Origin: Faecousia sp.
GTDB taxonomy: Bacteria; Bacillota; Clostridia; Oscillospirales; Oscillospiraceae
Direction: 5' to 3'
Assembly: GCA_029258495.1 (NCBI GenBank)
Contig: JARHYV010000130.1
Location: 1 to 46,093, forward strand
Length of the DNA stretch: 46,093 bases
Made by a program: the position numbers and the translations under genes. A model generated the notes under the pieces. That model searched no databases, was not told where the DNA came from, and saw nothing but the letters and a program-made list of their open reading frames with translations. Of the stretch, positions 2,899 to 17,378 are shown piece after piece. Every line of letters starts with the position of its first letter. Position 1 is the first letter of the stretch.

Positions 2899-3753
2899 AT
2901 GCTAAAACACGAAGTTACACAGATCGCACCCCACACCTGGTGCATCAGTGAGTTCCGTCTGGTCAATGCCTTTCTGGTGGAAGGCCGGGACAAGGCGGCA
3001 CTGATCGATACCGGCTGCGGCATCGGCGATCTGGCACAGATCGTCCGGGAATTGACCGACAAGCCCCTTATGGTGCTGCTCACCCACGGACATTTCGACC
3101 ACAACGGCGGCATCTTCCAATTCCCCGGCTGCCCCGTCTATCAGCATCCTGCCGATGCCCATCAGCAGGAGCAGACCATGAAGACCGTGGAAAAGCTCAC
3201 CGGCACACGGGATGAAAACAAGCTCCGCGCCTACTACATCACAAGCCGCGCTCCTATTCGCTGCCCGGATCTGGATGTAAACGAGCTGCTTTCTCTGGTT
3301 CCCACGGAGATGACCCCGGAGGATTACCACTGGCTGCCCATGGAGGACGGCACGGAATTTGATCTGGGCGGACGGATCCTTCGGGTGATCCACACCCCCG
3401 GCCATACCGACGGTGAGGTGTGCATTCTGGACAAGACCAGCCGCACCCTGTTCAGCGGCGACACCGCAAATGTGGGCATCATCCTCATGCGTCAGCCCAA
3501 CAATGATCCTTCCCTGATCCGGACATGCCGCCAGACCATGGCAAAGCTGTGGGCGCTGGAGGCAGACTATGACAAGCTTGGGGTCGGCCACGATGCCGTC
3601 ACCATCGACAAGCAGATCATAAAGGATTATCTGGATCTCACCACCGGACTGCTGGACGGCAGCATCGTGGGAAACTACGAGGAAGTGGGTTTCCGCAAGG
3701 GCGATGTGGCCCGCCTTGGGATGGCAGAGCTCTGGTATCAGTGCGATGCCTGA
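2899..3753 (+). CDS. Metallo-beta-lactamase-fold hydrolase (glyoxalase II/lactonase-like)
   Basis: LIDTG, THGHFDH (HxHxDH), TPGHT, FSGD, GH motifs; no signal peptide. Confidence 0.9.
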   Translation: MLKHEVTQIAPHTWCISEFRLVNAFLVEGRDKAALIDTGCGIGDLAQIVRELTDKPLMVLLTHGHFDHNGGIFQFPGCPVYQHPADAHQQEQTMKTVEKLTGTRDENKLRAYYITSRAPIRCPDLDVNELLSLVPTEMTPEDYHWLPMEDGTEFDLGGRILRVIHTPGHTDGEVCILDKTSRTLFSGDTANVGIILMRQPNNDPSLIRTCRQTMAKLWALEADYDKLGVGHDAVTIDKQIIKDYLDLTTGLLDGSIVGNYEEVGFRKGDVARLGMAELWYQCDA

Positions 3754-3780
3754 TCCGGTTTTTCGTTCCTCTCTATAAAC

Positions 3781-3826
3781 AAAACGCTTACCCCTGTGAA
3801 TTCAGGCGGTAAGCGTTTTGCTTTTA
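3781..3826. terminator. Bidirectional rho-independent terminator
   Basis: AAAACGCTTACC-CCTG...CAGG-CGGTAAGCGTTTT between convergent genes. Confidence 0.8.
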
Positions 3827-3836
3827 TAAACCGGGA

Positions 3837-4418
3837 CTATAAGAACAGATAGATCAGTCCTGCAGCCATCACTACAATCAGCAGGACGAATATGCACAGT
3901 ATGGCAACGGTGGTCTTTACCAGATGCCGCTCCTTCAAAGTCAGGATCATCATGGAGATCACATCCGCCACAAAGAAGAATTGGCAGATGCCGCACAGGA
4001 TGCAGACAGCCTTGGAATGGACGCCCTCCTTGCGGCTCTTGGCAAGATAGGCGATGGCATAGGGGGTCGTGCCCACAAACACCCCATAGCCGAATGCTGC
4101 CAGCACCACCACAACGATCCCAAAGAAGATCATCAGCGGCAGCGGGAACACAGAGGCAATGAATGCCATGGCAATGGTTTCGCCGCCAACCAGATAAAAG
4201 GGGATCAGCCCGTATTTGAGGATCAGGCTGGCATTGAGCAGCGTCTTCCTGTCCCATTTCCTGCCCACCGCCAGAACGGTGATCAGTTCCACAAGCCCCA
4301 TGACGATGGGGAAGAGGAAACACAGCCCCTGCATCACCAAGCTATCGTGAAATCGGAGAAACAGCAGGGAAAACACATAGGTGAGCACCACATGCAGGAT
4401 CGGCAGAACATATGCCAT
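3837..4418 (-). CDS. Hypothetical integral membrane protein (about 193 aa)
   Basis: Several hydrophobic helices; start moved to ATG 4418 after RBS GAAAGGAG; own promoter-like TGATATAAT near 4519-4527. Confidence 0.75.
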   Translation of the reverse strand: MAYVLPILHVVLTYVFSLLFLRFHDSLVMQGLCFLFPIVMGLVELITVLAVGRKWDRKTLLNASLILKYGLIPFYLVGGETIAMAFIASVFPLPLMIFFGIVVVVLAAFGYGVFVGTTPYAIAYLAKSRKEGVHSKAVCILCGICQFFFVADVISMMILTLKERHLVKTTVAILCIFVLLIVVMAAGLIYLFL

Positions 4419-4547
4419 CGGGCATTCTCCTTTCATTTATCTGTATCGTCGAGCCCTCTTGTCCGTCTTAGCAGGTCATGTCCGCATATAACGCACATCT
4501 GTCCTGCTTTGTGGAGTCATTATATCAGATCTCTCTGCCGATGTCAC

Positions 4548-5189
4548 CTATTTCCTGGAAGTTTTCCGATTTGTTTGTCTGAGCATCAGAGAACCTGCCG
4601 AGCCTGCGCCCACCATCAGCAGGATCAGACTGCCGATCCCACGGCTGCAATCGGCTGTATCCGGTATATGAGAGCCGTCAGGGATCTCCTCTGCCTGAAA
4701 TTGCCAGTCCAAGCTGCCTGACGCCTGCTGAAATTCATTGCCCATGGTGATAGGCACCTGCAGGGTCAGATCCAGGATCGCCTCTGCTCCGGGATAAAAT
4801 GTCCCCAGATATGCCCAATCCGTCAGCTGTGCCGGTTCATCCGCCGGCGCATCAAACAGCAGCTGCTGTGTATGAGCCGTCACCGTCAGCTCCAACTGAT
4901 GCAGGAAATCCGCGCCCTCAGCCTGAGCTCCCAGAGAACGGAGATACAGCTTTACGGGGTTCGTCCCATGATTGCAGATACGGATCTGCTGGGTCAGGCT
5001 GTCGCCGGGCATCACCTCCTTGAACCCATCAAACAGATCCGTGGGGGACTGATCGCTGCCGGGGCTGAATACAAACGCATCGCTGTGCCCCTGATATTCC
5101 ACCGTGCCATGGGCATGCGCTGTCACCGCAGCACCCAGCACCACCAGTACGGCAGTCACTCCGGCGAGATATCTCCGAAAAATGCCCAT
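4548..5189 (-). CDS. TasA/camelysin-like protein with Sec signal and C-terminal sortase-B-type sorting signal (putative pilus anchor)
   Basis: Signal peptide ending AHA; FKEVMPGDSLTQQIRICNHG resembles the PG..I.V.N.G motif of the neighbours; IPDTAD + hydrophobic helix + RKTSRK tail; TGATG overlap with upstream stop. Confidence 0.75.
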   Translation of the reverse strand: MGIFRRYLAGVTAVLVVLGAAVTAHAHGTVEYQGHSDAFVFSPGSDQSPTDLFDGFKEVMPGDSLTQQIRICNHGTNPVKLYLRSLGAQAEGADFLHQLELTVTAHTQQLLFDAPADEPAQLTDWAYLGTFYPGAEAILDLTLQVPITMGNEFQQASGSLDWQFQAEEIPDGSHIPDTADCSRGIGSLILLMVGAGSAGSLMLRQTNRKTSRK

Positions 5190-5791
5190 CAGCACAAGCC
5201 TCCTTCCCGGATCTGCTGCGGATCGATGCCCCATGCATCTGCCACTGCCGCGATCCCCGAGGCTGTAAGCCCCTGCGCCTGAATTGCCTCAGCAGCCACC
5301 TCGATCACCTGTCTGCCGCCGTCCGGATCCGTGTAGAAGGCAAGTGGGATCCCTTCCGCGCCGATCAACGGCGATTCCGGCTGTTTTCCCGGCTCCACCG
5401 GATATTTGTAGTAATAGCAGTTCCCCTGCGCAAACCAATCCTTTCCCAGAGGGAACGCTGCCACGGGCGCACTGCCCCCGATCCGCTCATCTGCTCCATT
5501 TACACGATAGCTTATAAGCTTTACCCGTATATAGGCCGGGGTGCTGCCTGTATTGGTCACATTCACATCGCGCTTGACGCTGCCGTCAAAACATTCATCC
5601 ACCCGGCAGTCCACCCGTGCAGGCATCAAAACATTCAACAATGGGTCGGATGCCGTTTGGAGCCACGCCGCCGTCGTACCGACAGCGATCCCCACTGCCG
5701 CACATACGGATGCCGCTGCCGCAGTGATCCTGTACCGGACAGTGCGTTTTCTGCTCCGGATACTCCGGTGCCAGTCATACTGACCGTCCAT
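5189..5791 (-). CDS. SipW-dependent signal peptide protein, TasA/BsaA-like subunit 3
   Basis: GTTAA|WLQTASDPLLNVL SipW-class motif; VNVTNTGSTPAYIRV, YYY..PVEPG, AEAIQ..AW shared with paralogs. Confidence 0.85.
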   Translation of the reverse strand: MDGQYDWHRSIRSRKRTVRYRITAAAASVCAAVGIAVGTTAAWLQTASDPLLNVLMPARVDCRVDECFDGSVKRDVNVTNTGSTPAYIRVKLISYRVNGADERIGGSAPVAAFPLGKDWFAQGNCYYYKYPVEPGKQPESPLIGAEGIPLAFYTDPDGGRQVIEVAAEAIQAQGLTASGIAAVADAWGIDPQQIREGGLC

Positions 5792-5809
5792 CGCAACCGC
5801 CTCCTTTCC

Positions 5810-8800
5810 TTATGGATGCCCTTTGGGCAGCCGAGCAACATTCTGTACCACATCGCTGAACCCGTTGAGCCAGGATGTCCTCCTGCCGGAATTAACGCAG
5901 GTGATGCACCCCCGGGGATGGCCGCTGTCAAGACAGACCCCTGTACCGATGCGGATATCCGTATACCGCCATGCCCACTTCGCATCCTCCTGAATGGTAT
6001 ATTGCCCCACCGGAAGTTCATAGATCACAGCTTGATCGCTGCCGATGATCGTCAGTTCCGTATACGGCTCGCCATCCTTGCAGACCGTAAAGACATAGGG
6101 TTCTCCTGCTTTGCCTCCCTGTTTCTCAATGGTCAGGCAGCAGGTCTGAACATGCAGCAGGAAGGTTCCCTCCTCTGCGTGAAAACCGCAGTCCGGCTCA
6201 CAGGGCTTGTGGAGGAAATGCACATATTCCCCGATCTGCTGACCGGACAGCTGCACATCCACCTGAACCGGAATATCCGCCTTTGTCTGCACGATGCCGT
6301 CCTGCGTCCCTGCACCGAGCCGGTAGCTCAGCTCCAGCTGAGGCGGTATCCCCTGCATGGTCACATCCTGATCCAAGCTCTCACCATGCCTCCACACCGT
6401 ATCCAGATGGTTGGCATCAAAGCCATCCGGCACAGGCGCGCCATAGAAAACGCTGCTGTCCCGAAAGGTAAGCTCCGGCAGAAAAACTCGGATCTTCCCG
6501 GTGCCCGTTCCGATTTTTTGTACAGCCGAACCTGCTGATTTGGGAGTGATCCGGGCTGAAACCGTATAGGTCTGATCTTGGGTCAGTCCCGTAAGGGCTT
6601 GCCCCTTGCAGATGGTCACCTCGGCATAGGCCGTCTGCCACGGCTCAAGCTCCTTCAGCAGATCCACACCGCCTGCATGGATCGTCACTCCCTGCATCAA
6701 TGCGTCTTGGGATGCATCAGCCAGCAGGTAGAAATTGTGATCCTTGGTCTGAACCGTGATATCCGGGATGGGCAGATCCACGCTGGGGATCTCGAAATGC
6801 GCGACCGGCCCGTCCTTGGTATATAAGCCGGACTCTGCCCCATTGGTGGGCACACCGTTACCGCCCAGAAACCCCTGACGCATCTGGATGGGAATGGTAA
6901 CCACCAGCTTTCTGCCCCTGTACACGGTATGTCCCTGTTCTGTTACTGTGCCGACCCAGTTTTCCGAATAGTCAAAATCCGTCACGGTTATGGTTTTTCC
7001 GTCCGGAGATATCTGCACATCGGCCGCAAATTCCTCCGGCTGTGCAAAGCTGTCATCGCCAATGTAATCGGCTGTGCTGACCCGGATATCCCGTTGGTCT
7101 GCTCCCTCAGGCAGCCGGAAGGCATCCCCGATCACATCTGCCAGAACGGTTTGCTTTCCCAGCTCTATGGCACTTCCTCCGATCTGGATCTGATCCGAGA
7201 TCGTCTGGAAGATGTTGTTCAGCGCATGGGCATCCGCTGCCGAAAGGTAATAGCTCGGCTCCTGAACCACCCCATTGTTGCCGGATATATTCTGCATGAA
7301 CCAGTTGCTTTTTTCCGTTGTGGAACCATATTCTGATCCGGCTGAGGCAGCATCGGCCCCCTCAAAGATCCCCACGGAATACACCGATGCACCATAGGTA
7401 TCCTTTGTTGCCTGCGCCGCACGGATCGCCGACTCCGCAACCGTTTCATCGTATCCGGAGGCTCCGGGCTGTCCGTCTGTAAAGACGATCATCACCCGGT
7501 TCCGTTTCTGTCCGACGGGTACCGGATTGTTCTGCCAGATCCTGTTTGCCAGCTCCACACCCAGATCCACATAGGTCGCACCTTTTGCCTCAAGACTCCG
7601 GATCGAGCTTTGGATCTGCATCAGACCATCGGGATCCTTCATATCCTGAAATGCCTCTGCACATACCGCATCCGTCACCGTATCATACCGATGCTGCACA
7701 TCTCCTACGAGGATCTCGGTATTTCGGTACATGCCGGAGGAGCTGTCCCGTGCGGATGCAAAGCCCACCATCGCGATCCGATGATCCACATCATCCGCCG
7801 TACCTGCTACTGCATCTGCGCCTCTGGCTTTCTCGGCCACCGCATCCGAAAAACGCGCCACAGCTGTTTTCAGTGCCTCCAAACGACTTGTTGACGATGT
7901 CTGCTCCGCCGTATAAAATGTCCAATCCGGTGCCGGCATATTCTGGGGCACACATACCTCATTCATGGTGCCATCGCTCCGAAGATAGGAGAACCGATAG
8001 CCTTCCACCACCTCTTCCCTGTAAAATGCATCCGAAAAAGCCGGAATATTCCTGCCGCCGAAGTCCCTGCCGAGGCTCCCGCAGGCTTGACATGCATAGC
8101 TGTATTCGCCCAAAAACTGGGTGACAAAGACTGCACCATATGTACCGTCGGCACAGCGATGGAAAAACGCCCCGGATTCGGCGGCATACCTTCGGTTCGT
8201 ATGTCCGGAATACGGCACATAGGTACCGGCAGGCAGTTTTTCCTTCACAGCTGTCACCGGCGCATAGGCTCCGTCCGTCCGCTTGACATACAGATTTTTC
8301 CGCCGACGATACAGCTCTTCCGGTGTGCCGGTGAAGGGTGTGTAGGTGTAGGATGCAAACTCCCGATCCATAGAGCCGGACTGATCCAAAACCAGAATGA
8401 TATCCGTGGGGATCTGGGTCTGCTGATGGATGATGGTCTGTTTTCCCGTGACCCAAGCCTCCAGGGTCAGGGTGTACCGACCGTTTGCATCCGGATGGGA
8501 CACATGCTTTTCAGTCCGGATGCCGCTGTCCGGTTTTTCCGGCATTGCGCGTCCATCTTCCTCTGTATCCCCGATCCCCGTTACAGGCGGCAGGAAGGGC
8601 GCTGCATCCGTCACATTTCGGGATGGATGCAGCACCTCCCGATCCTCCGGCGGTTGTGTTCCCTCCGGCTCCGGCTGATGGGCATCAAATGCCCGTGATG
8701 CCCGCTCAAGCTCCTGCCGCTGCTGCTGGGTCAGTGCCGATGCAAAGGACTCTCGGCTGCTGCCATCCAGCTCCTCCAGCAGTCTGTCAAATTCCTCTGC

Positions 8801-9007
8801 ATCTGCCGCCTGTATCAGTGCCTGATACAGCTGCTGCACCTGCTCCGCAGTCATGCCGGAGGACTCTGTTTCCTCCGAGTGCAGAAGGCCCGTCTGTTCC
8901 GCAGTTGTGCTGACGGAGCCTTCCTCCCCGGCAGCCGCCAGAACGCCATTGCCCATGGACATTGCCAAACTCAGGCACAGCAGGAGCGATATCAGTCTTC
9001 TTGCCAT
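5810..9007 (-). CDS. Large secreted vWA-domain adhesin (1065 aa), tip-pilin-like
   Basis: Sec signal; MIDAS DQSGS...GAT...FTDG; Ig/Cna-like segments; C-terminal LTIEK...LPVGQYTIQE...VN domain; no LPxTG or TM anchor. Confidence 0.85.
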   Translation of the reverse strand: MARRLISLLLCLSLAMSMGNGVLAAAGEEGSVSTTAEQTGLLHSEETESSGMTAEQVQQLYQALIQAADAEEFDRLLEELDGSSRESFASALTQQQRQELERASRAFDAHQPEPEGTQPPEDREVLHPSRNVTDAAPFLPPVTGIGDTEEDGRAMPEKPDSGIRTEKHVSHPDANGRYTLTLEAWVTGKQTIIHQQTQIPTDIILVLDQSGSMDREFASYTYTPFTGTPEELYRRRKNLYVKRTDGAYAPVTAVKEKLPAGTYVPYSGHTNRRYAAESGAFFHRCADGTYGAVFVTQFLGEYSYACQACGSLGRDFGGRNIPAFSDAFYREEVVEGYRFSYLRSDGTMNEVCVPQNMPAPDWTFYTAEQTSSTSRLEALKTAVARFSDAVAEKARGADAVAGTADDVDHRIAMVGFASARDSSSGMYRNTEILVGDVQHRYDTVTDAVCAEAFQDMKDPDGLMQIQSSIRSLEAKGATYVDLGVELANRIWQNNPVPVGQKRNRVMIVFTDGQPGASGYDETVAESAIRAAQATKDTYGASVYSVGIFEGADAASAGSEYGSTTEKSNWFMQNISGNNGVVQEPSYYLSAADAHALNNIFQTISDQIQIGGSAIELGKQTVLADVIGDAFRLPEGADQRDIRVSTADYIGDDSFAQPEEFAADVQISPDGKTITVTDFDYSENWVGTVTEQGHTVYRGRKLVVTIPIQMRQGFLGGNGVPTNGAESGLYTKDGPVAHFEIPSVDLPIPDITVQTKDHNFYLLADASQDALMQGVTIHAGGVDLLKELEPWQTAYAEVTICKGQALTGLTQDQTYTVSARITPKSAGSAVQKIGTGTGKIRVFLPELTFRDSSVFYGAPVPDGFDANHLDTVWRHGESLDQDVTMQGIPPQLELSYRLGAGTQDGIVQTKADIPVQVDVQLSGQQIGEYVHFLHKPCEPDCGFHAEEGTFLLHVQTCCLTIEKQGGKAGEPYVFTVCKDGEPYTELTIIGSDQAVIYELPVGQYTIQEDAKWAWRYTDIRIGTGVCLDSGHPRGCITCVNSGRRTSWLNGFSDVVQNVARLPKGHP

Positions 9008-9576
9008 TGCGAACCATCCCTTTCTCCGTCCATGGGCCAGCCTGCCGCATGCAGGGCATCATCCCCGTTGTTGGCAGTCTGTGTCGCCTGAGCTGCCACA
9101 TGAATGGCAGCGTTTGCCTGCTGATACAGCTCGTCCATATCACCGGAGAAGGTCACAGCCGTAAACAGCGGCTCGGTTTCCTCTCCGGGAGCCAGTGGGG
9201 TGTTGTAATAATACGCGCCGTCCTTCTCCGTCCAGCAAGCCGTGTTCAGCTCCAGCTCCATCATAGACGGATCTGCCTGCCGGTGTCCCTGCAGGGTGAT
9301 CTCCCGATCGACCAGCAGCCGCACATAGGCCGCACTGCTGCCTACATTTGCAACGGTGACGATCTTGCTGATCCGCTGCCCCGGCAGCACCTTTCCTGGC
9401 TGCTCATAGGGAACCAGTGTGCCGTCATCCAGACGGGCATTTTCCTTCAGCCGGATCCGGACACTGCCGGCTGTGATCACATTTCGTGCAATGCCCGTGC
9501 CGCTGAAACAGGCCAATGTCCCGGGTACTGCTAGGCAGATCACCAAAACCGCCAGGACTGCGATCTTCTTTTTCAT
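8992..9576 (-). CDS. SipW-dependent signal peptide protein, TasA/BsaA-like subunit 2
   Basis: MKKK...GTLA|CFSGTGIARNVITAGSV; LPGQRISKIVTVANVGSSAAYVR; YYYNTPLAPGE; RBS AAGGAG before ATG 9576. Confidence 0.88.
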   Translation of the reverse strand: MKKKIAVLAVLVICLAVPGTLACFSGTGIARNVITAGSVRIRLKENARLDDGTLVPYEQPGKVLPGQRISKIVTVANVGSSAAYVRLLVDREITLQGHRQADPSMMELELNTACWTEKDGAYYYNTPLAPGEETEPLFTAVTFSGDMDELYQQANAAIHVAAQATQTANNGDDALHAAGWPMDGERDGSQWQED

Positions 9577-9595
9577 TCCGAACACTCCTTTGATA

Positions 9596-9635
9596 CAGCA
9601 GCAAGCCGGGGCATGCCCCGTGGCTTGCTGCGCTG
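9596..9635 (-). promoter_or_regulatory. Intercistronic GC-rich stem-loop without U-tract
   Basis: CAGCAAGCC-GGGGCATGCCCC-GT-GGCTTGCTG between subunit 1 and subunit 2 genes. Confidence 0.55.
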
Positions 9636-9712
9636 TGCTTACGCCTGTCCTTCCGGCTTTGCGCAGCCGCTCCGGTCGCTACGATCCCTGAACAAATGGC
9701 ACAGGTGCATCT

Positions 9713-10309
9713 TTACGCGCCAAATCCGCCTGCTGCCCATGCCTCTGATGCCGTGGTGAACCCTTCCGACTGGATCGCATAAGCGTTTACAAGGATCTGC
9801 TTGCCCTGATAGCCAGCCAAAGTGTCCTGATCCACGGCAGCCGCAATCGAAAAGCTCTCAAATACCGGGATGTCCTGCCCTGCATTTGCGATCTGCTGAT
9901 AGGCATAGACCTGCTCCGCACCGTCCACCTTAGACCAACCCAGACGACTCATCTGGGCATCGATGCTCTGAGCAGCCGGTGATTCAATGGCGGCAATATC
10001 GTTCGCGATCTGCACAAACAGCCAGCAGTTTTCACTGGCTGCATCCACATGGATCACCGGATCCTTGGTATAGCTGTGCCCGGGCAGCAGGTGATATTCA
10101 TTGGTCTGGACACGATTGGATTCATCTGTTACATATGTACCATCCGGAGCAACCGCAGCCTCGTCCAGTGTAATGGCGACCCTGCCCACCGTAAAGGTAT
10201 TTGTTACATGATCCTGAGCAGTCAGGTATGCAACCGTACACATGACAGAGGATACCACCAAAGCCGCACCGCACAGTGCAGCAACCACTGTTTTTTTCAT
10301 TGTTTTCAT
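9713..10309 (-). CDS. SipW-dependent signal peptide protein, TasA/BsaA-like subunit 1 (probable major subunit)
   Basis: CTVA|YLTAQDHVTNTFTVGRV SipW-class motif; LLPGHSYTKDP; AYAIQ..AW; RBS AAGGAGG before ATG 10309. Confidence 0.88.
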   Translation of the reverse strand: MKTMKKTVVAALCGAALVVSSVMCTVAYLTAQDHVTNTFTVGRVAITLDEAAVAPDGTYVTDESNRVQTNEYHLLPGHSYTKDPVIHVDAASENCWLFVQIANDIAAIESPAAQSIDAQMSRLGWSKVDGAEQVYAYQQIANAGQDIPVFESFSIAAAVDQDTLAGYQGKQILVNAYAIQSEGFTTASEAWAAGGFGA

Positions 10310-10310
10310 T

Positions 10311-10910
10311 TTAGAAAACCTCCTTAGATGATATATGGGAAGCCTCTTCGGCATTGCCCCAAGATCGTTGTCCGGCAGAGCCTGCCTTGCTCTGTCGGGA
10401 TGCACCGGGAGCCTTACGACGATCGGTGAACAGCTCCGGAACAAAAATGAGTATCAAAAGGATCGCTCCCCCTGCACAGGAACACAATCTTCCGGACGGA
10501 GTCTGGATATAGCTGGCCGCATACCCCAGATACGGTACCATGAATACCGGCTTGCCGATCACATTCTCTTCCTGTACCGGCTCGATATCTGCCGAGGTGT
10601 TGGCATCGCCTTTCGTTCGGTAGCAGATGCCACCATCCTGCTGTATGATCTCCACCACCCGATGCGTCGCTGCGGTATGCTCATTGAGCATAAAGGTGAT
10701 AGGGTCACCGGGATTGATCCCGCTGCGGTCTGTCCGCTGAACATAGATCAGCGACCCCACCGGATATTCCGGCTCCATAGAGCCCGACCGCACGGCAAAG
10801 GCCTGCAGACCCACCAGTCGTCCGCCTGCCAGCAGTACCGCCATGATCGCCACTGCCGCCACCAAAACCGTTGTGACGGCATCCCAAACTTTTCTCACTT
10901 TTCCATTCAT
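10311..10910 (-). CDS. sipW: ER-type (S26B) signal peptidase I
   Basis: SGSMEP (Ser), THRVV (His), TKGDAN..D motifs; N- and C-terminal TM helices. Confidence 0.95.
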   Translation of the reverse strand: MNGKVRKVWDAVTTVLVAAVAIMAVLLAGGRLVGLQAFAVRSGSMEPEYPVGSLIYVQRTDRSGINPGDPITFMLNEHTAATHRVVEIIQQDGGICYRTKGDANTSADIEPVQEENVIGKPVFMVPYLGYAASYIQTPSGRLCSCAGGAILLILIFVPELFTDRRKAPGASRQSKAGSAGQRSWGNAEEASHISSKEVF

Positions 10911-11062
10911 CTGTCATTTCCCTTCATTTCATTACACTTCCTTGTGGAAGGGGATCAAAATGGGTTTTGCCTGTATATTCTACCCAACTGTGGCTGTCGA
11001 GTTTTATCAAATACAAGTCCTGCACAAAAATTTTTCACCTCCGGTATCCCGTTGGAGCCGAC

Positions 11063-11100
11063 AAAAAAATCGTCCCTTACCGAAGTAAGGGACGATTTTT
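11063..11100 (-). terminator. Terminator after sbcC
   Basis: AAAAATCGTCCCTTAC-CGAA-GTAAGGGACGATTTTT perfect stem with U-tract. Confidence 0.9.
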
Positions 11101-11106
11101 CTACGA

Positions 11107-13794
11107 TCAGCAGGTGATCTTGCACACGCTGCCATCTTTTGTCTTGGAGATTTGGATCTTGGCGGGAATGGTTTCCGCCAGTCGTTCCACATGGGAGATG
11201 ATGCCCACCATGCCGGAGCTGCGCCGGATGCCGTTCAGGATCTCCAGTGCATCGTCAATGGATTTGCGATCCAGAGAGCCGAACCCCTCATCGATGAACA
11301 TCGCCTCCAGTCGGACTCCGCTGCCCTGCGCCTGAACCACGGTGGAAAGCCCGATGGCAAGGCTCAGCGACAGCAGGAACTTCTCGCCGCCGGACAGGGT
11401 GGTCACGCTCCTGCGTCCGTTGTGATCGGCAACCTCCAGCTCCAGACCGCGCTTTCTGGCAGAGCCCGACGACTCATTGGTGCGGTAGAGCTGATACCGA
11501 CCGCCGTAGACTGTCCTGAGCAGCTGATTGGCGGCAGCGGTGATGGAGGTGAGCATGACGCCAAGCACATACCGCTGCAGGCTGATGCCGTAATCCCCTC
11601 GGATGCGCTTTGCAAAGACCACAGCCTCATCGCACTTTGCCCGTTTTTCGCCGTAAGCTTTGGTGCGTTTTTCCAGATCCTCTGCATCCTTTTCCATGGT
11701 CTTCCGGCGGCTGTTTCTGAGCACATAGACCTCGTTCAGGTCGCTCTGCTGCTTTTGCGCCTGCTCCAGTCGCTGCTTTGCCCCCTGCACATCCGGCTGC
11801 TGCCGGTCTTGGAGCTGCGCCTGCTTTTCCGCTACTTCTCTTGCGGCATTGGCAAGATCGGTGCGGAACTGGATCAGTGCCGTTCTGCGCCGCTGAAGGG
11901 CCGCCGTATCCATGCAGGCTGCCTGATACTGGGCATCGTTTTGGAACCCTGCATCCGTCCGAGCCTGCTCCCATCTGCATCTATGCTCGTCAAACTCTTC
12001 CGACGCAGCCTCCAGGTTCTTCCGGCTGCGCTCAAGCCCCATACGGGATGCTTGCAGATTGCCCTGAGCATCCTGCATCCTCTGCTGCAGCTCCGTTTCC
12101 GTCCGCTCAAAGTCACCGATCGCCTTTTCAAGTCCCTGTGCCGCTGCAAGCAGCTGCTGCAGATTGTCGATCCCCGGGATCCGCTGGGCTTTGACCTGCT
12201 TGTACTCCGTCACTGCCACCGCATAATCCTGCTGTTTCTGGGTGAGCACGCTCTGCGCAGATTTATAGTCTTCATCTGCCTCCATATAGCCTTTTCGGGC
12301 AGCATCCTCCTGTCTGATGGCAGCCGTCCTGTCTTGGGCGCAGCGTTTCAGCTCGTCCTCGGTCACATGCCCCTCCGCAGGGCGCGCCGGTGCCGGATGG
12401 GACAGGCTGCCGCAGACCGGACAAGGTGCTCCGTCGGTGAGCTTTTCCGCCAGAATGCTGCCGATACCGGACAGATACAGCATCTGCACATGCTCAAATG
12501 TTTCCGATGCCTGCTGCTGCATCCGGATCGCCTGCTCCCACCGGCTGCGTGCGTGGCAGCGCTTTTCCTCCGCCTTATCAGACCGGATCTTGGCATCCTG
12601 TAAGGCAGCCTTCGCCTGATGCCCCTGCTGCTCCTTCTGCCCGAGGGCTTGATAGACCCCCTCGGCATTGTTCAGCAGCACCAGATCCTGCGTATTCCGC
12701 AGGTGACGCTGCCGGTCATTTTCGTGGCATGCCTGCCGCTGCTGAACCTCCTGCGCGGTGCGCTGTGCGCCCAGCACCGCCTGCTGCGCTTTTTCCACTT
12801 CCTTCTGCTCACGCAGCAGCTTTTGGTGCGCCAGCTCATACTGATGATAGTCCCCGGTGATCCGCTCTGCCGCATCCGCCCAATTCAGGATGACCTCCTC
12901 CTGATCGGCAGCGGACACCTTGGGCAGCAGGGCATTCAGCCGTTTTTTCAGCTCATCCAGCTGCTCAAATTCCCGATTTTCCAGCAGCAGCTTATCCCAT
13001 TCCTGCTTGCAGTCCTGAACCTCTTTGGTCAGCGCATTCAGCCGCTGCAAAAGCTCTTCCACCTGAACCGACTCCTCCGCGGTCATCTCCCGGAGCTGCT
13101 CAAGCCCCTGACAGCCATAGCCGTTCAGCTTATCCTGAATGAGCATCCGCTCCTGATCCAGCTGCTTGCTCTCGGCATCCGCCTGCTCATAGAGCCTGAC
13201 GGCGATCTTCTGCCATCGCTGCGCATGGAACAGGGTCACAAGGATCTTTTCCTTCTCCTCCGAGCCGGAGACCAACAGCCTTTCAAACTGCCCCTGAGGC
13301 AGGATGATGACCTGCCGGAACTGCTCATAGGTCAGCCCGATGAGCTGATTTGCCATCTCATTGAGAAAGGACGGCTTATCCTTGGCATCCGGCAGCGGGA
13401 CAAATGTCCCATCCTTCAGGATCTGACATTCACAGGTGGCATTGTATTCCGACAGCAGCTTTTTCTCCGGAGTTTCCACCGCCTTGCGTCTTTTCTTCGG
13501 CTTGAACCCCCGATAAAAGCGATAGCGCTCTGCGCCGCTTTCGAAGATGTACTCCACAAAGGTTTCGTCCGTATCCGCCGCCTGCTTGCAGCGCATCACC
13601 GGCAGCTCTCCGCGCAGTCCGCCGCTGGATCTTCCATAGAGGGCATAGCACATGGCATCCAGAATGGTGGTCTTGCCGGCTCCTGTTTCGCCGCAGATCA
13701 GGAACAGACCGTTCTTTTCCAGTTTGGTAAAATCCACGAATTGTTCCTGCATATACGGGCCGAAACACTGAAATCGCACGGAAATCGGTTTCAT
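11107..13794 (-). CDS. sbcC: SMC-like nuclease ATPase subunit SbcC
   Basis: Walker A GETGAGKTT, Q-loop LPQGQF, coiled coil, zinc hook CPVC, LSGGE, IDEGFGSLD; ATGA overlap with sbcD. Confidence 0.95.
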   Translation of the reverse strand: MKPISVRFQCFGPYMQEQFVDFTKLEKNGLFLICGETGAGKTTILDAMCYALYGRSSGGLRGELPVMRCKQAADTDETFVEYIFESGAERYRFYRGFKPKKRRKAVETPEKKLLSEYNATCECQILKDGTFVPLPDAKDKPSFLNEMANQLIGLTYEQFRQVIILPQGQFERLLVSGSEEKEKILVTLFHAQRWQKIAVRLYEQADAESKQLDQERMLIQDKLNGYGCQGLEQLREMTAEESVQVEELLQRLNALTKEVQDCKQEWDKLLLENREFEQLDELKKRLNALLPKVSAADQEEVILNWADAAERITGDYHQYELAHQKLLREQKEVEKAQQAVLGAQRTAQEVQQRQACHENDRQRHLRNTQDLVLLNNAEGVYQALGQKEQQGHQAKAALQDAKIRSDKAEEKRCHARSRWEQAIRMQQQASETFEHVQMLYLSGIGSILAEKLTDGAPCPVCGSLSHPAPARPAEGHVTEDELKRCAQDRTAAIRQEDAARKGYMEADEDYKSAQSVLTQKQQDYAVAVTEYKQVKAQRIPGIDNLQQLLAAAQGLEKAIGDFERTETELQQRMQDAQGNLQASRMGLERSRKNLEAASEEFDEHRCRWEQARTDAGFQNDAQYQAACMDTAALQRRRTALIQFRTDLANAAREVAEKQAQLQDRQQPDVQGAKQRLEQAQKQQSDLNEVYVLRNSRRKTMEKDAEDLEKRTKAYGEKRAKCDEAVVFAKRIRGDYGISLQRYVLGVMLTSITAAANQLLRTVYGGRYQLYRTNESSGSARKRGLELEVADHNGRRSVTTLSGGEKFLLSLSLAIGLSTVVQAQGSGVRLEAMFIDEGFGSLDRKSIDDALEILNGIRRSSGMVGIISHVERLAETIPAKIQISKTKDGSVCKITC

Positions 13795-14921
13795 TGGACA
13801 TCCTCCTTCTGGGTCTGCGCAAGTGCCTGAGCAAATCTCTCCATTTCCTCCTCTGAGGGGGCATATTGGTAGCACTCGGCAAAGAATTTGCACATGATAT
13901 CGGTTTCATCCAGACTTTCCAGTTCTTCAACGGACAAAGATGAGGTTTCCTCCTCCGAGTCCACACGCTTTCCGATCAGCTCCAGAAGATAGGGAAAACG
14001 CTCCTTCAGATCCGCCTGCAGCTCCAGACCTGCATAGCGGTCGGTCACATGCAGCCGGAGATAATCCTGCTGCAGATCCGTTCTGGCGATCAGCTCCTCA
14101 TAGGTTCCTGTCGCGCTCTGCCGATCCCTGAGCAGGGGCAGCTCCACAAAGGTCTGCTCCATGGTGTCGGTATCCACCAGAACGACGCCCTTCTTCTGGC
14201 TCTCCTCCGCACCGAAGGAGTACTTGATGGGGCTGCCGCTGTAACGGATATGGGGTGCGATCACCTGAGGCTTGTGGATATGCCCCAGTGCCACATAGTC
14301 AAAGCCTGCAAACACATCCTTGGAAACCGCCGTGGCAGAGCCGACCTTTGCCGATCGGTCTGAGTCGGAAAGCTCCGCATTGACGATATAGGCATGGCTC
14401 ATGACGATGTTTTTTCGGCGGGTGTCCATATTCTCACGAATGTTCCGGCAAACCACCTGATAGGCATCCTCCTGCGAGCGGATCTGCTCCTGATCCTCCG
14501 GAAACAGGGCGATGACCTCGTCCCGGGTGAAATAGGGCAGGCTGTAAACCGCCGTCTTTCCGCCGTCCAGCAGGATCGGCTCCGGATCCCGCTCCAGTCT
14601 GCCGGTGACATACATGCCGGATCCCCTCAGCAGCTCCCGGCAGGACGAGAGCCGTGCCGCACTGTCGTGATTTCCTGCGATGAGGATGAATTTTACCCCC
14701 AGTCGGGCGCACAGTGTGGTGGCAGCATCGTTGAACAGCCGGATGGCATCGGCATTGGTGACGCTGCTGTCGTAGATGTCCCCTGCACACAGCACCGCCT
14801 CCACCTGCTCCTTCCGGATCAGCTCATACAGCCTGTCGAGGAAGTATCTCTGGCTGTCCTCATAGCTGCCAGAGCCCAGCGGCATGCCAAAATGCCAGTC
14901 GGATGTGTGAATGATTTTCAT
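13791..14921 (-). CDS. sbcD: Exonuclease SbcCD nuclease subunit D
   Basis: HTSDWH, AGDIYD, GNHD, SH, LGHIH metallophosphoesterase motifs. Confidence 0.95.
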   Translation of the reverse strand: MKIIHTSDWHFGMPLGSGSYEDSQRYFLDRLYELIRKEQVEAVLCAGDIYDSSVTNADAIRLFNDAATTLCARLGVKFILIAGNHDSAARLSSCRELLRGSGMYVTGRLERDPEPILLDGGKTAVYSLPYFTRDEVIALFPEDQEQIRSQEDAYQVVCRNIRENMDTRRKNIVMSHAYIVNAELSDSDRSAKVGSATAVSKDVFAGFDYVALGHIHKPQVIAPHIRYSGSPIKYSFGAEESQKKGVVLVDTDTMEQTFVELPLLRDRQSATGTYEELIARTDLQQDYLRLHVTDRYAGLELQADLKERFPYLLELIGKRVDSEEETSSLSVEELESLDETDIMCKFFAECYQYAPSEEEMERFAQALAQTQKEDVQ

Positions 14922-15032
14922 AGCCTGTCCCCTTTCCCCAAGAAAAACACAAATCTGCAAATATCTTCTCAAAATCAGAATAAACAGCAAAAAATCCCGT
15001 ATTCTTGTTTTCTATTATACTGTTCCGGCAGG

Positions 15033-15139
15033 AAAAAGTAAAGCCGGAAGGTTCCGGTTTCCCGGGATCTTCCGGCTGTGCACGGACTGATCCGGCACGC
15101 ACATGCAAAAAAGCAGCCGTCCCCACCGGAAACGGCTGC
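15033..15139 (-). terminator. Two tandem terminator hairpins after nagD
   Basis: GCAGCCGT...ACGGCTGC + U-tract (15107-15139) and AGCCGGAAG...CTTCCGGCT + UUACUUUUU (15033-15077). Confidence 0.7.
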
Positions 15140-15147
15140 AAGCTGAT

Positions 15148-15957
15148 TTACTTTGCAGGGGGTGCTTTTTTCTGGAGCTGTGCCTGCTTGACGATGTCGC
15201 CCACACCATCGAGAACTACGGTAGGACGGTAGGCAAATGTCCTGAGGGTTTCCATCGTGGATACACCGGACAGCACCAGAATGGTGGACATGCCGCTTTC
15301 CATGCCGGAAACGATATCCGTATCCATCCGATCGCCCACCATGACGGCCTCGGAAGAATGGCAGCCCAGCAGACGCAGACCCGTGCGCATCATCAGCGGA
15401 TTGGGCTTGCCGCAGAAATATGCCTGCGTGCCCGTTGCCTTTTCGATGGGAGCGACCAATGCCCCACAGGCAGGTGCGATGCCGTTTTCGATGGGGCCGG
15501 ACAGGTCGGAGTTGGCGCCGATCAGCTTTGCGCCCCTCATCACAAGATTGGTAGCTTTGGTCAGGGTGTCCAGAGAATATGCCTTTCCCTCGCCCATGAC
15601 CACATAGTCCGGGTTCACATCGTTCATGGTGATGCCTGCATCATACAGGGCATTGAACAGACCTGCCTCGCCGATGGCATACACCGAACATCCGGGAGAT
15701 TGCTCCTTGAGGAAGGCAGCCGTTGCCAGCGCACTGGTATAAAAATGCTTTTCCGGCACATCCAGACCCATGCGCGCCAGCTTTTGCTGGAGCTCTCTGG
15801 GGGTGGAGCCGCTGTTATTGGTCAGGAACAGGAATTCCTTCTTCTCACGGTGCAGCCAGTCGATAAACTCCGCAACACCGGGTAAAATCTTATTTCCATG
15901 GTAGATGACTCCATCCATATCGCAGATAAAGCCCTTTTTTTCTTCAAACTGAATCAT
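15148..15957 (-). CDS. nagD: HAD-IIA family phosphatase (NagD-like)
   Basis: DMDGV, LTNN, GKP, VGDRMDTD motifs. Confidence 0.9.
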   Translation of the reverse strand: MIQFEEKKGFICDMDGVIYHGNKILPGVAEFIDWLHREKKEFLFLTNNSGSTPRELQQKLARMGLDVPEKHFYTSALATAAFLKEQSPGCSVYAIGEAGLFNALYDAGITMNDVNPDYVVMGEGKAYSLDTLTKATNLVMRGAKLIGANSDLSGPIENGIAPACGALVAPIEKATGTQAYFCGKPNPLMMRTGLRLLGCHSSEAVMVGDRMDTDIVSGMESGMSTILVLSGVSTMETLRTFAYRPTVVLDGVGDIVKQAQLQKKAPPAK

Positions 15958-16087
15958 ATAGAATCCTTTCTATTGATATATTCCTTAGATATTCTCATTA
16001 CAAGATTATTATATCGGACACATCTGCCAAAACAATCAAAGACATTTGAATTCTATGTAAAGTTTCGGTAAACTGCCGTCCCATGGG

Positions 16088-16891
16088 TCACTGGGCTTTG
16101 GGTGTATCCGTCACCCGATCAAGCTGTTTCAGCGACCCTACCACCAGATAACGGGCATCCTGATATTCATAAGAGCAGGTGGACAGCAGCACAGAGTGTT
16201 CCACCGTGCTCAGATCCGTTTCGATGGGATATACCGACCGATCCTGCACATCCTCCAGGAATTTCCGATATGCGTCCTCGGAATAGGGGAACCGATAAAT
16301 ATCCGAGTCTGCATCCGTCTGGAGGACACCGATCACATCCACCCGATAGTCCGCATCCGGTGTGAGCAGGTACATGACCGGGTGTTCCTTGTAAAATTCC
16401 TCGCTCTGATACTCTGCAAGCACCGCAAACATGCTGTCGTTGTTCATATTGTGCCCGTAGATGATGCTGTTGTGATCCTTGAACTCCCCATCGCTGCGAT
16501 AGTCCATAAAGATCGAGCCGGAGTGATTGTAGTTGCCGTCGAGCATCCGGCGCAGGTAATAGTCGTTGTCCTGTGCCTGAACAATGGGATAATTCAGCGT
16601 GGTATCCGGGCAGTAGATCCATCCCACCACATCCTCATTCTCCTGAAGCAGTGCGTCAAAATCCACCTCAATGGGAGCCGTTTCCTTGGGAACCGAAGGC
16701 TCGGTGGCATCGGGAGCGGGCTTTTTTGTGTCGGACTGCTTGACAAATTTGTCTGTTGTCGCGGCATAGACCTTTTCCGCCTGAGAATACGCGCTGTAAA
16801 TGGAGTAGATCTGATAGCCGGAATAGCACATCACACCCAGACAGATCACCAACAGAACACTTCTTAAAAACTTTTTCATATCGTATTCCAT
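16088..16891 (-). CDS. srtB: Class B sortase
   Basis: N-terminal TM; YPIVQ..DNDYYL, GSIFMD, IYGHNM (His), LSTC (Cys), ARY (Arg). Confidence 0.92.
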   Translation of the reverse strand: MEYDMKKFLRSVLLVICLGVMCYSGYQIYSIYSAYSQAEKVYAATTDKFVKQSDTKKPAPDATEPSVPKETAPIEVDFDALLQENEDVVGWIYCPDTTLNYPIVQAQDNDYYLRRMLDGNYNHSGSIFMDYRSDGEFKDHNSIIYGHNMNNDSMFAVLAEYQSEEFYKEHPVMYLLTPDADYRVDVIGVLQTDADSDIYRFPYSEDAYRKFLEDVQDRSVYPIETDLSTVEHSVLLSTCSYEYQDARYLVVGSLKQLDRVTDTPKAQ

Positions 16892-17040
16892 CTTTCAGAC
16901 GGAAACCTCCTATTTGATTATAGCTGCATTATATCACACCGCTGCGGAAAATAACAAATGAATTTATTGTGATTTTATCACGGAAGGGATCGGATCTCCG
17001 GGTTATACTAAAGGCACTTAAACGGAAGGAGCTATTGATT

Positions 17041-17364
17041 ATGGCTATCATGGAATTGAACAACGAACTGTTTCAGCAATCTGTAAATGAGGGCGAAAAG
17101 CCCGTTCTGGTGGACTTCTGGGCACCTTGGTGCGTCTACTGCCGCCGTATCGCTCCGGCATACGAGAAGATCGGCGATCAGTACTCCGATGACATCGTGG
17201 TTGCAAAGGTGAACATCGACGAAAATCCCGAGCTTGCCGCCAAGGAGCATATCGAGGTCATTCCCACACTGGTGCTCTACCACAAGGGTCAGGCTCTGGG
17301 CTCCATTGTGGCACCCGAGTCCAAGGCAGCCATTGAAGAATTCATCCAAGAGCATATGGGCTGA
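17041..17364 (+). CDS. trxA: Thioredoxin
   Basis: VLVDFWAPWCVYC, cis-Pro IPT; RBS GGAAGGAG. Confidence 0.9.
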   Translation: MAIMELNNELFQQSVNEGEKPVLVDFWAPWCVYCRRIAPAYEKIGDQYSDDIVVAKVNIDENPELAAKEHIEVIPTLVLYHKGQALGSIVAPESKAAIEEFIQEHMG

Positions 17365-17378
17365 GCCCGGGAGGATAT

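What the first reader, a model, noticed from the sequence alone, without database searches (positions are those of the whole stretch)
4548..10910. Candidate SipW-dependent, donor-strand-assembled, sortase-anchored adhesive pilus
Seen: six co-oriented, closely packed genes. They encode sipW, three TasA-like paralogs with SipW-class signal peptides, a 1065-aa vWA adhesin with no membrane or LPxTG anchor, and a TasA-like protein with an ordinary Sec signal plus an IPDTAD-TM-basic sorting signal. Established: Bacillus TasA polymerises by inserting its SipW-released N-terminal strand into the next subunit, and C. perfringens has a sipW-bsa-srtB biofilm operon. Inference: such a filament has one free-strand end and one free-groove end. 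The sortase substrate (groove, no strand) would cap and anchor one end, and the adhesin (strand mimic, no groove) would cap the other. That would give a polar pilus with base, shaft and tip, distinct from sortase-C covalent pili and chaperone-usher pili.
Basis: partly seen in the sequence, partly recalled or inferred. Interest (0 to 1): 0.9.

Follow-up and report, generated by a model that had tools for sequence, protein, structure and literature searches.

The report
Strand-locked pilus with plug-in adhesin tip
Six neighbouring genes of an uncultured clostridial bacterium likely build a hair-like surface fibre whose subunits are predicted to lock together by swapping protein strands, with a sticky tip protein that would plug in through a copy of that strand at its own tail and a base protein that would be stitched to the cell wall; related designs have been proposed or shown elsewhere, but the tail-plugged tip was not found in the papers searched.

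Summary
Observation confirmed. The locus is a conserved SipW/BsaA(TasA)-family operon; 62 related clostridial loci were read. (2) The three SipW subunits keep the Asn-Glu-Lys isopeptide triad of C. perfringens BsaA (91-98%). (3) They differ in role: P3 always follows the adhesin and co-diverges with it; P2 co-diverges with the anchor P4. (4) P4 has a TasA-like fold without the strand and carries swappable anchors (PxTGD, LxxTG plus adjacent sortase, SLH). Likely order: adhesin-P3-(P1)n-P2-P4-wall. No complex model could be run, so all contacts are inferred. srtB lies 5 kb away, outside the operon. The design is partly in print: BsaB anchoring (speculated), Tafi and AbpX tip/anchor models, and the Elr pilus (donor strand plus sortase, shown). 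The C-terminal-strand tip was not found in my searches. This scan reported the same system earlier on other DNA (e1-3870514, e1-2984743). Verdict: new variant of a known kind.

The parts
10311..10910 (-). sipW, dedicated ER-type signal peptidase I (199 aa)
   Evidence: TIGR02228 103.8 bits over cut-off, NF046067 below cut-off; Ser42 and His82-Arg motifs; only SipW-profile gene with a strong hit in the genome
9713..10309 (-). P1, predicted major shaft subunit (198 aa from ATG 10309); SipW-class signal, donor strand with N37, E50, K82
   Evidence: TIGR04088 over cut-off; shaft family N/E/K 97/98/98% of 67; 1-7 such genes per related locus; own group in the tree
9595..9633 (-). RNA stem-loop in the 136-nt gap between shaft and minor genes; inferred to set subunit ratios
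   Evidence: local fold z -2.39, 5 of 200 shuffles as stable; whole gap z only -1.0 in the window; gap before P2 has z < -2 in 47 of 50 loci
8992..9576 (-). P2, predicted base adaptor (194 aa); N32, E45, K71
   Evidence: TIGR04090 below cut-off; directly precedes P4 in 24 of 63 loci; partial correlation with P4 0.50, permutation P 0.002
5810..9007 (-). Sec-exported vWA/MIDAS adhesin (1065 aa), pilus-tip-adhesin architecture, no wall anchor; last domain SpaA/CnaB-like with conserved K962, E1007, N1039
   Evidence: Pfam; AF2 mean pLDDT 85.1; Foldseek top hits SpaC, PitA, Mfa5, RrgA, GBS104; invariant columns
5834..5872 (-). C-terminal donor-strand-like tail of the adhesin (aa 1046-1058, with N1056)
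   Evidence: W-L-x-x-[FY]-x5-N in 120 of 120 database homologues; strand motif in 29 of 34 locus adhesins vs 0.96 in shuffles; pLDDT < 50 in the monomer model
5189..5791 (-). P3, predicted tip adaptor (200 aa); N53, E66, K73
   Evidence: preceded by a large anchorless adhesin in 34 of 34 loci; partial correlation with adhesin C-module 0.63, permutation P 0.002
4548..5189 (-). P4, predicted base/anchor subunit (213 aa from ATG 5189): TasA-like fold without donor strand or N-E-K triad, C-terminal sorting signal
   Evidence: AF2 pLDDT 76.5; Foldseek ranks 1-4 TasA; VIA Z 9.0 to 5OF1, rmsd 3.3, 135 aligned, model 23-171 on TasA 37-235; HHalign to P2 and P1 families 97.5% and 95.6%
4650..4667 (-). 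I-P-D-T-A-D sorting motif of P4, variant of family P-x-T-G-D
   Evidence: 23 and 14 of 58 family members hit TIGR01167 and TIGR03063, the window copy hits neither
16088..16891 (-). class B sortase, candidate anchoring enzyme, outside the operon
   Evidence: TIGR03064 211.6 bits over cut-off; the only class B match among three sortases in this 81.5%-complete genome

Best explanation
The operon likely builds a polar, wall-anchored pilus of the BsaA/TasA family, predicted to run adhesin - P3 - (P1)n - P2 - P4 - cell wall, in which each subunit would insert a beta-strand into the next one and a spontaneous Asn-Lys isopeptide bond would lock the joint. Shown by sequence and comparison: the parts list, the strand-like tail on the adhesin, the conserved N-E-K triad in P1/P2/P3, the strand-less TasA-like P4 with swappable anchors, and the pairings adhesin~P3 and P2~P4 in gene order and co-divergence. 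Inferred from TasA and BsaA biology: the Sec-exported adhesin supplies the first strand (the role TapA plays for TasA) from its C-terminus to membrane-tethered pre-P3; SipW then cuts P3's signal peptide and frees its N-terminal strand; many P1 subunits are added at the membrane end; P2 ends the shaft and donates its strand to P4, which has none to pass on; a sortase, probably the class B enzyme 5 kb away, links P4 to peptidoglycan. The P2-P4 joint is probably non-covalent or uses a different lysine, since P4 lacks the triad.
For: Tail: full strand motif in the last 45 aa of 29 of 34 adhesins (shuffle mean 0.96, max 5), 2 of 165 other ORFs, 0 of 64 P4 ORFs; 0 of 34 adhesins have a C-terminal TM. 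A profile trained only on subunit strands scores 22 of 34 locus tails and 120 of 120 database tails above the 95th percentile of controls. The tail is conserved yet unfolded in the monomer model, after a complete last domain. Test not selected on P4: among 59 proteins with this last domain, 0 of 23 with a TM sorting tail have a TasA-like neighbour and all 19 with such a neighbour lack a TM tail. Triad: N/E/K at 97/98/98% (shaft), 94/94/94% (P2), 97/91/94% (P3), in the same motif context as BsaA in the published alignment (by eye); BsaA's N35-E56-K74 lock was shown by mutagenesis (PMC11580942). Roles: P2, P3 and shaft genes form three separate groups (support 100, 99, 95); the gene before P4 is P3 in 33 and P2 in 24 of 63 loci, and in L050 adhesin+P3 moved as a unit leaving P2-P4 adjacent; partial distance correlations adhesin~P3 0.63 and P2~P4 0.50 (P 0.002 each) against adhesin~P2 -0.06 and the adjacent pair P3~P4 0.08 (similar). 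Base: all of mature P4 maps on TasA from residue 37-39, after the donor strand 28-38 (PMC9674648); SipW-type cleavage motif in 3 of 62 P4 and 1 of 34 adhesins against 140 of 145, 50 of 53 and 26 of 34 subunits; anchors alternate between PxTGD-TM, LxxTG[QKR]-TM with a sortase gene next door in 10 of 11 cases, and SLH repeats in 5 loci. Ratio control: structured gap before P2 in 47 of 50 loci.
Against: No inter-chain model and no experiment exist for this locus. The window's own tail ends in Ala at the last motif position and meets only the short motif; the subunit-trained profile finds the tail as best site in only 11 of 34 whole proteins, and 12 of 34 tails do not exceed the control threshold. 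Co-divergence of adhesin and P3 could reflect exchange of the two genes as one cassette. P4 has Gln or Glu at the acceptor-Lys column (58 of 61), so the base joint is not locked in the BsaA way; BsaB was not covalently bound to BsaA oligomers and srtB deletion changed nothing in C. perfringens strain 13, whose BsaB lacks LPXTG (PMC11580942; PMC7395162). The window's sorting motif is a minority variant and hits no sorting-signal HMM; srtB lies within the fetched stretch in only 6 of 63 loci. P4's fold match to TasA (Z 9.0) ties with unrelated jelly-rolls (Z 8.5), and in the wide search 8AUR ranks fifth. P1-P3 were not folded; their profile gave no significant PDB hit (none; AbpX, E 0.41). Several strand-tailed adhesins have no TasA-like neighbour, though 4 of 5 such genomes checked encode TasA-like genes elsewhere.
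Confidence: 0.68

Rival explanations
1. A released biofilm-matrix fibre like C. perfringens BsaA: P1 polymerises and is shed, while the adhesin and P4 are co-expressed accessory surface or matrix proteins that are not ordered end-caps.
For: BsaA polymers are mostly extracellular, need neither BsaB, BsaC nor SrtB, and BsaB is not cross-linked to them (PMC7395162; PMC11580942). P4 lacks the triad. srtB is unlinked.
Against: Does not explain the strand copy with its Asn on heterologous adhesins, the adhesin-P3 and P2-P4 couplings or three interchangeable wall anchors on the same strand-less domain. Strain 13's BsaB is described as a rearranged allele without LPXTG.
Confidence: 0.15
2. Same chemistry but a short display stalk: one adhesin, P3, few or no P1, P2 and P4 form a fixed small complex that holds the adhesin on the wall, not a long pilus.
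For: Most genes are single-copy and tightly coupled; some related loci have as few as four parts (adhesin, sipW, one subunit, anchor: L073, L102); one locus has P3 directly after the adhesin with no P2 seen (L024).
Against: The structured gap after the shaft genes in 47 of 50 loci fits an excess of P1; shaft genes expand up to seven copies; BsaA forms long ladders.
Confidence: 0.09
3. Polar pilus with the adaptors the other way round or unspecific: the adhesin plugs into P2 or P1, and P3 donates to the neighbouring P4.
For: P3 is adjacent to P4 in 33 of 63 loci and the two are fused into one ORF in L016; four-part loci need no dedicated adaptor.
Against: Loci without the Sec adhesin keep P2-P4 and lack P3 (23 of 24 within the stretch read); L050 moves adhesin+P3 together; P3~P4 partial correlation 0.08 (P 0.26) and adhesin~P2 -0.06.
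Confidence: 0.05
4. The adhesin's tail is an intramolecular element or an export signal, and the adhesin is not part of the fibre.
For: Some tailed adhesins have no TasA-like neighbour; BsaC secretion depends on type IV pilus genes in C. perfringens (PMC11580942).
Against: The last domain is complete without the tail and the tail is unfolded in the model; its pattern matches the subunit strands including the Asn.
Confidence: 0.03

Closest known systems
Clostridium perfringens sipW-bsaA-bsaB-bsaC (+ adjacent srtB): Obana 2020 PMC7395162 (passages read); Kivimaki 2025 preprint PMC11580942 (parts 1-4 of 8 of the text, passages, and supplement parts 1 and 11 read)
   Same: SipW, BsaA-family subunits with the N-E-K triad, a triad-less paralogue that carries LPXTG in most strains, a vWA protein and a class B sortase nearby. 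The paper already speculates that the LPXTG-bearing BsaB anchors BsaA oligomers via SrtB, and notes LPxTG, SpaA and sortase neighbours and possible heteropolymers across the family.
   Different: Described as a biofilm matrix, with BsaC's role stated as unknown; no tip model, no C-terminal strand and no dedicated adaptors are described in the parts read. I could not test whether BsaC itself has the tail.
Bacillus subtilis tapA-sipW-tasA fibre (PMC9674648, passages read; PDB 8AUR, 5OF1/2)
   Same: SipW processing, jelly-roll fold (P4 model), N-terminal donor strand, initiation by a strand-donating accessory protein (TapA, predicted).
   Different: No isopeptide triad (per PMC11580942), no large tip adhesin, no sortase or SLH base.
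Haloarchaeal Tat-fimbriae, Tafi (PMC11821415; passages and most of section 15 read)
   Same: Predicted order tip (TafC) - adapter (TafE) - core (TafA) - anchor/terminator (TafF), joined by donor strands, with the tip giving the first strand.
   Different: Tat export, membrane anchor rather than sortase, and the tip donates an N-terminal strand from its own pilin-like domain; here the tip has no TasA-like domain and the strand is at the C-terminus.
AbpX-like loci of the TasA superfamily (bioRxiv 10.64898/2026.01.04.697558; section 9 and passages read)
   Same: Bacterial loci with minor subunits, predicted tips, signal peptidase and LPXTG or SLH anchors that AF3 predicts to join the fibre by donor strands.
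   Different: A separate cluster with calcium-dependent strands and a ten-helix peptidase; no C-terminal-strand tip or isopeptide lock in the section read.
Enterococcus faecalis Elr (WxL) pilus (bioRxiv 10.64898/2026.10.17.759780; abstract and passages read)
   Same: Gram-positive pilus built by donor-strand exchange with a modular tip adhesin and sortase-dependent wall retention.
   Different: WxL fold, membrane chaperone, no SipW, and opposite polarity: there the tip carries the acceptor domain and the LPxTG base donates the strand.
Sortase-assembled pilus tip adhesins SpaC, PitA, RrgA, GBS104 and type V tip Mfa5 (Foldseek hits)
   Same: vWA/MIDAS head on a stalk of CnaA/CnaB-like domains (domain class names recalled).
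   Different: The sortase-pilus adhesins attach through a sorting signal and a class C sortase (recalled); this one has no sorting signal and ends in a strand copy.

Membership tests
BsaA/TasA SipW-dependent fibre operon | dedicated SipW-type signal peptidase in the operon | tested here: met
   TIGR02228 over cut-off, first gene of the block
BsaA/TasA SipW-dependent fibre operon | subunits with SipW-cognate signal peptide and family profile match | tested here: met
   P1 over TIGR04088 cut-off; P2 and P3 below or without own hits, but 52 of 52 and 31 of 34 family members hit TIGR04090 at E<=0.01
BsaA/TasA SipW-dependent fibre operon | TasA jelly-roll fold | tested here: inconclusive
   P4 model: TasA is top hit but ties in Z with unrelated jelly-rolls; P1-P3 not folded, linked to P4 by HHalign over about 85 columns that include signal peptides
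BsaA/TasA SipW-dependent fibre operon | polymerisation by donor-strand exchange | not testable with these tools
BsaA isopeptide-locked subgroup | Asn-Glu-Lys triad | tested here: met
   91-98% conservation in three families, window residues all present; same motif context as BsaA in the published alignment, by eye
BsaA isopeptide-locked subgroup | heat- and SDS-stable covalent polymer | not testable with these tools
   needs expression
Sortase-assembled (class C) pilus | class C sortase in the locus and sorting signals on every pilin | tested here: not met
   no sortase in the block; only P4 has a C-terminal hydrophobic segment; the genome's class C sortase sits in a separate locus on contig C29
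Tafi (Tat-fimbriae) | tip subunit donating an N-terminal strand from a pilin-like domain | tested here: not met
   adhesin N-terminus lacks the SipW-type motif (1 of 34), is disordered then helical in the model; strand copy is C-terminal
Tafi (Tat-fimbriae) | Tat export of subunits | not tested
   no Tat-motif scan was run
Elr/WxL chaperone-guided pilus | WxL domains and DUF916/DUF3324 chaperone | tested here: not met
   no such Pfam match for any of the six proteins at E<=0.1
Class B sortase substrate (P4) | motif + hydrophobic segment + basic tail, and a cognate sortase in the genome | tested here: inconclusive
   layout present and family motif P-x-T-G-D strong; window copy is a T-A-D variant with no HMM hit; srtB present; processing untested

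The most novel reading that the evidence does not exclude
A widespread clostridial pilus class that needs no polymerising sortase and no chaperone: tip adhesins of the sortase-pilus type have swapped their sorting signal for a C-terminal copy of the TasA donor strand, which a dedicated adaptor captures and locks by a self-formed isopeptide bond. One conserved plug then displays interchangeable heads (vWA, Listeria-Bacteroides repeats, a GH20 enzyme) on a covalent fibre with interchangeable wall anchors, and may also explain what BsaC does in C. perfringens.
Probability: 0.5. Interest if true: 0.78.

Novelty: new variant of a known kind. Interest (0 to 1): 0.62.

Why it matters
If true, many uncultured Clostridia (P4-profile matches in 54 of 401 genomes sampled from the order) have an adhesive pilus that annotation lists as hypothetical proteins. 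It would give concrete, testable roles to the vWA and LPXTG members of bsa-type operons, whose functions the C. perfringens papers leave open, and would add a third way of fixing a tip adhesin in Gram-positive bacteria: neither sortase cross-linking nor an acceptor pilin domain, but a C-terminal strand with a self-forming isopeptide bond. A 13-residue tail captured covalently by a 160-residue adaptor would also be a natural tag-and-catcher pair for surface display.

Tried and rejected
The search of the 1.84-billion representative set was not available either. The Atlas did not hold P3. No RNA holder was listed for the locus; no evidence either way. Rfam: no match at E<=1 in 3500-17500. HHalign of the adhesin C-module against the P3 family found nothing (probability 0.2), so the strand likeness rests on motif and profile tests, not on profile-profile homology. 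Profile searches of PDB sequences: none for the shaft family, AbpX at E 0.41 for P2. A search of 399 class genomes with TIGR04090 gave no locus that I could name as C. perfringens, so BsaC's tail was not examined. The longer starts of the ORF list for P1 (243 aa) and P4 (228 aa) were rejected on ribosome-binding sites and family alignments. The idea that P4's first strand is itself a donor strand (suggested by the HHalign register) was set aside because mature P4 maps onto TasA from residue 37-39 onward and has no strand Asn; it is not excluded. A classical sortase-C pilus reading was rejected (membership table). srtB as an operon member was rejected: three unrelated genes, a terminator-like site at 15139-15113 and promoter-like sites lie between.
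Full report
OBSERVATION. The six genes are present as described, on the minus strand, with gaps of 1, 136, -16, 18 and -1 nt. In transcription order: sipW; P1 (198 aa); P2 (194 aa); a 1065-aa vWA protein; P3 (200 aa); P4 (213 aa). Family scans support SipW and a SipW-cognate signal on P1 above cut-off, BsaA-family similarity for P2 below cut-off, vWA for the large protein, and nothing for P3 and P4 alone. At family level 55 of 66 shaft, 33 of 52 P2 and 4 of 34 P3 members hit TIGR04088, and 35, 52 and 31 hit the BsaA model TIGR04090 at E<=0.01. The window is contig C292 of a 1.9-Mb, 81.5%-complete genome. Named relatives are Oscillospiraceae, Lachnospiraceae, Eubacteriales and Acutalibacteraceae MAGs; no call shows the habitat. 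The class B sortase is 5.2 kb upstream, beyond sbcC, sbcD and a HAD hydrolase, and is the only class B match among three sortases in the genome.

RELATED LOCI. A P4 profile matched 37 of 301 family genomes at E<=1e-5, the weakest of them only over the sorting signal, and 54 of 401 order genomes at E<=1e-10. I fetched the 20 best-scoring places and 40 places, favouring those with upstream sequence, plus four loci, two of which duplicated others and were dropped. That gives 63 loci with the window; three genomes contribute two loci each. The gene before P4 is a P3 orthologue in 33, a P2 orthologue in 24, and something else in 6 (contig ends, a fused ORF, miscalled ORFs). P2 and P3 orthologues were defined by clear gaps in profile scores and form separate groups from the shaft genes in a quick IQ-TREE tree (support 100, 99, 95; 115 rows from P3-containing loci; partly circular because the labels came from profiles). 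Type I loci read sipW - 1 to 7 shaft genes - P2 - large Sec protein - P3 - P4. Type II loci read sipW(s) - SipW-class subunits, many with long extensions - P2 - P4 and have no P3 in the stretch read (23 of 24; some are cut by contig ends). L050 has the adhesin and P3 moved ahead of sipW as a pair.

THE TIP. The adhesin model is confident (mean pLDDT 85.1) and its best structural matches are pilus tip adhesins: SpaC, PitA, Mfa5, RrgA, GBS104. Its last domain is SpaA/DUF5979/DUF7601-like (20-25 of 34 members) with invariant K962, E1007 and N1039, the pattern of an intramolecular isopeptide bond (inference). After it comes a conserved tail that is unfolded in the monomer (pLDDT < 50 for 1046-1049 and 1051-1065). 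All 34 P3 genes follow a 511-1807-aa protein; none has a C-terminal TM; 29 carry aromatic-hydrophobic-x7/8-Asn-x-hydrophobic in the last 45 residues, against 0.96 in shuffles, 2 of 165 other ORFs and 0 of 64 P4 ORFs; 32 carry the shorter form, the window among them. This is the pattern of the subunits' own mature N-termini (207 of 234 matched). A profile trained on those N-termini alone is a weaker discriminator: 22 of 34 locus tails and 120 of 120 close database homologues exceed the control 95th percentile, and the tail is the best site in 11 of 34 whole proteins. The heads differ (vWA, Listeria-Bacteroides repeats, GH20) while the last domain and tail are kept. To avoid selecting on P4, I searched phylum and class samples with the last-domain profile (15 of 401 and 45 of 400 genomes) and read 56 stretches (all 16 contigs; 40 of 49, five being already held and four left out). 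Of 59 proteins, 23 have a TM sorting tail and none of these has a TasA-like neighbour; 19 have such a neighbour and none has a TM tail (10 match the motif in the last 45 residues, 9 do not); 12 have neither, and 5 run off contigs. The profile includes the tail, so it favours tailed proteins.

THE LOCK. C. perfringens BsaA polymerises by donor-strand exchange and an N35-K74 bond catalysed by E56, shown by mutagenesis (PMC11580942). The shaft, P2 and P3 families keep Asn, Glu and Lys at 91-98% in the same motif context as BsaA in that paper's alignment (by eye). The adhesin tail keeps the Asn. P4 lacks the Asn and has Gln or Glu at the Lys column in 58 of 61, like BsaB, which the paper says lacks the triad.

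THE BASE. The P4 model (pLDDT 76.5) has TasA as Foldseek ranks 1-4 (E 6.5e-5 to 2.3e-4) and VIA Z 9.0 to monomeric TasA, model 23-171 on TasA 37-235, tied within 1 Z with unrelated jelly-rolls; in the wide search 8AUR is fifth at Z 7.3. TasA's donor strand is residues 28-38 (PMC9674648), so mature P4 has no residues left for one. Its family ends in P-x-T-G-D-type motif plus TM in most loci, in LxxTG[QKR] plus TM with a sortase gene directly downstream in 10 of 11, or in SLH repeats in 5. Three unrelated wall anchors on the same domain argue that anchoring is its job. The window's own motif is a minority T-A-D variant.

WHO BINDS WHOM. Across 23 loci with all parts and sipW as a control, rank partial correlations of pairwise distances are 0.63 for adhesin C-module with P3 and 0.50 for P2 with P4 (permutation P 0.002), against -0.06 for adhesin with P2 and 0.08 for P3 with its neighbour P4; thinning near kin to 20 loci changes little (28 loci without sipW agree). 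Adjacency does not explain P2~P4. Cassette exchange of adhesin+P3 could produce the other signal, and kin are not independent, so this shows coupling, not contact. The gap before P2 is longer than most other gaps and folds better than shuffles in 47 of 50 loci; in the window the whole gap is not significant (z -1.0) but a local hairpin is (z -2.39). I read it as a step-down from shaft to minor genes (inference).

MECHANISM. Likely tip-first assembly at the membrane: the adhesin's tail primes pre-P3, SipW frees P3's strand, P1 repeats, P2 hands over to P4, and a sortase fixes P4 to the wall. The membrane-tethered exchange-then-cleave step follows the BsaA model, and the need for a first strand follows TasA/TapA. 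Confidence 0.68. Rivals: released matrix with loose accessories (0.15), short stalk (0.09), other adaptor order (0.05), tail with another role (0.03).

WHAT IS KNOWN. Kivimaki et al. already list LPxTG, SpaA and sortase neighbours, suggest heteropolymers, and speculate that LPXTG-BsaB anchors BsaA through SrtB; Obana et al. found no srtB phenotype in strain 13. Tafi has a predicted tip-adapter-core-anchor order with an N-terminal strand on the tip. AbpX loci have predicted tips and LPXTG or SLH anchors. The Elr pilus combines donor-strand exchange and sortase anchoring with another fold and opposite polarity. Eight full-text searches returned no paper describing a C-terminal donor strand on an adhesin of a SipW operon or dedicated adaptors in this family; I saw most hits only as listings, the library lacks most subscription papers, one supplement of PMC11580942 (a slide file) could not be read, and bioRxiv supplements are closed, so Fig. 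9C and Fig. S16-type neighbourhoods may show more. Earlier notes of this scan reached the same reading on other genomes (e1-3870514, e1-2984743); I had noted the tail before seeing them, they are not independent support, and other notes there pointed me to the Tafi and AbpX papers.

VERDICT. A real, conserved system and a likely member of the BsaA subgroup; a new variant of a known kind. The surprise lies in the plug-in tip and the adaptor pairs, both inferred and directly testable. Interest 0.62; 0.78 if the covalent plug is confirmed.

Noticed in passing
genome contig C29, 3938-13212 (loci L005, L006, L009): A separate classical pilus-like locus: signal peptidase, 1659-aa and 487-aa proteins with LPxTG-type ends, a class C sortase over cut-off, an ancillary protein and a second small sortase.
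   Followed up: partly
L004, L039, L040, L042, L045-L048 (type II subset), L052-L056, L059-L065: A second architecture: often two sipW genes, SipW-class subunits with C-terminal extensions up to 1753 aa, then P2-P4, then another conserved ~215-aa SipW-class gene; no Sec adhesin or P3 in the stretch read. Payloads may ride along the shaft.
   Followed up: partly
L031:6073-10209: The plug-in module carries a glycoside hydrolase family 20 catalytic domain instead of a vWA head.
   Followed up: no
L071, L089, L090, L094, L099, L101: Strand-tailed adhesins with no TasA-like neighbour; 4 of 5 genomes checked encode TasA-like genes elsewhere, which would allow tips supplied in trans.
   Followed up: partly
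L091 (G1427:C54): Two 2,200-2,300-aa tailed adhesins flank a single P3-like gene.
   Followed up: no
L016:2479: P3 and P4 read as one 586-aa ORF, while the same genus has them separate in L017; natural fusion or assembly error not resolved.
   Followed up: no
L014, L018 (P4 homologues): P4 extended by 2-4 Cna_B repeats before an LxxTG motif, with a small unclassified sortase directly downstream.
   Followed up: partly
genome contigs C39, C89, C138, C231: Four other large proteins end in P-x-T-G-D plus TM and basic tail, likely further SrtB substrates.
   Followed up: no
genome contig C162: Two overlapping ORFs in different frames each hit the adhesin last-domain profile; a possibly frameshifted surface protein at a contig end.
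   Followed up: no
window 3837-4436 (-): Multi-helix membrane protein with no Pfam or NCBIfam hit and its own strong promoter-like site at 4547-4519, so probably not part of the operon.
   Followed up: no
window 11107-15957 (-): sbcC, sbcD and a HAD-IIA hydrolase separate the operon from srtB.
   Followed up: no
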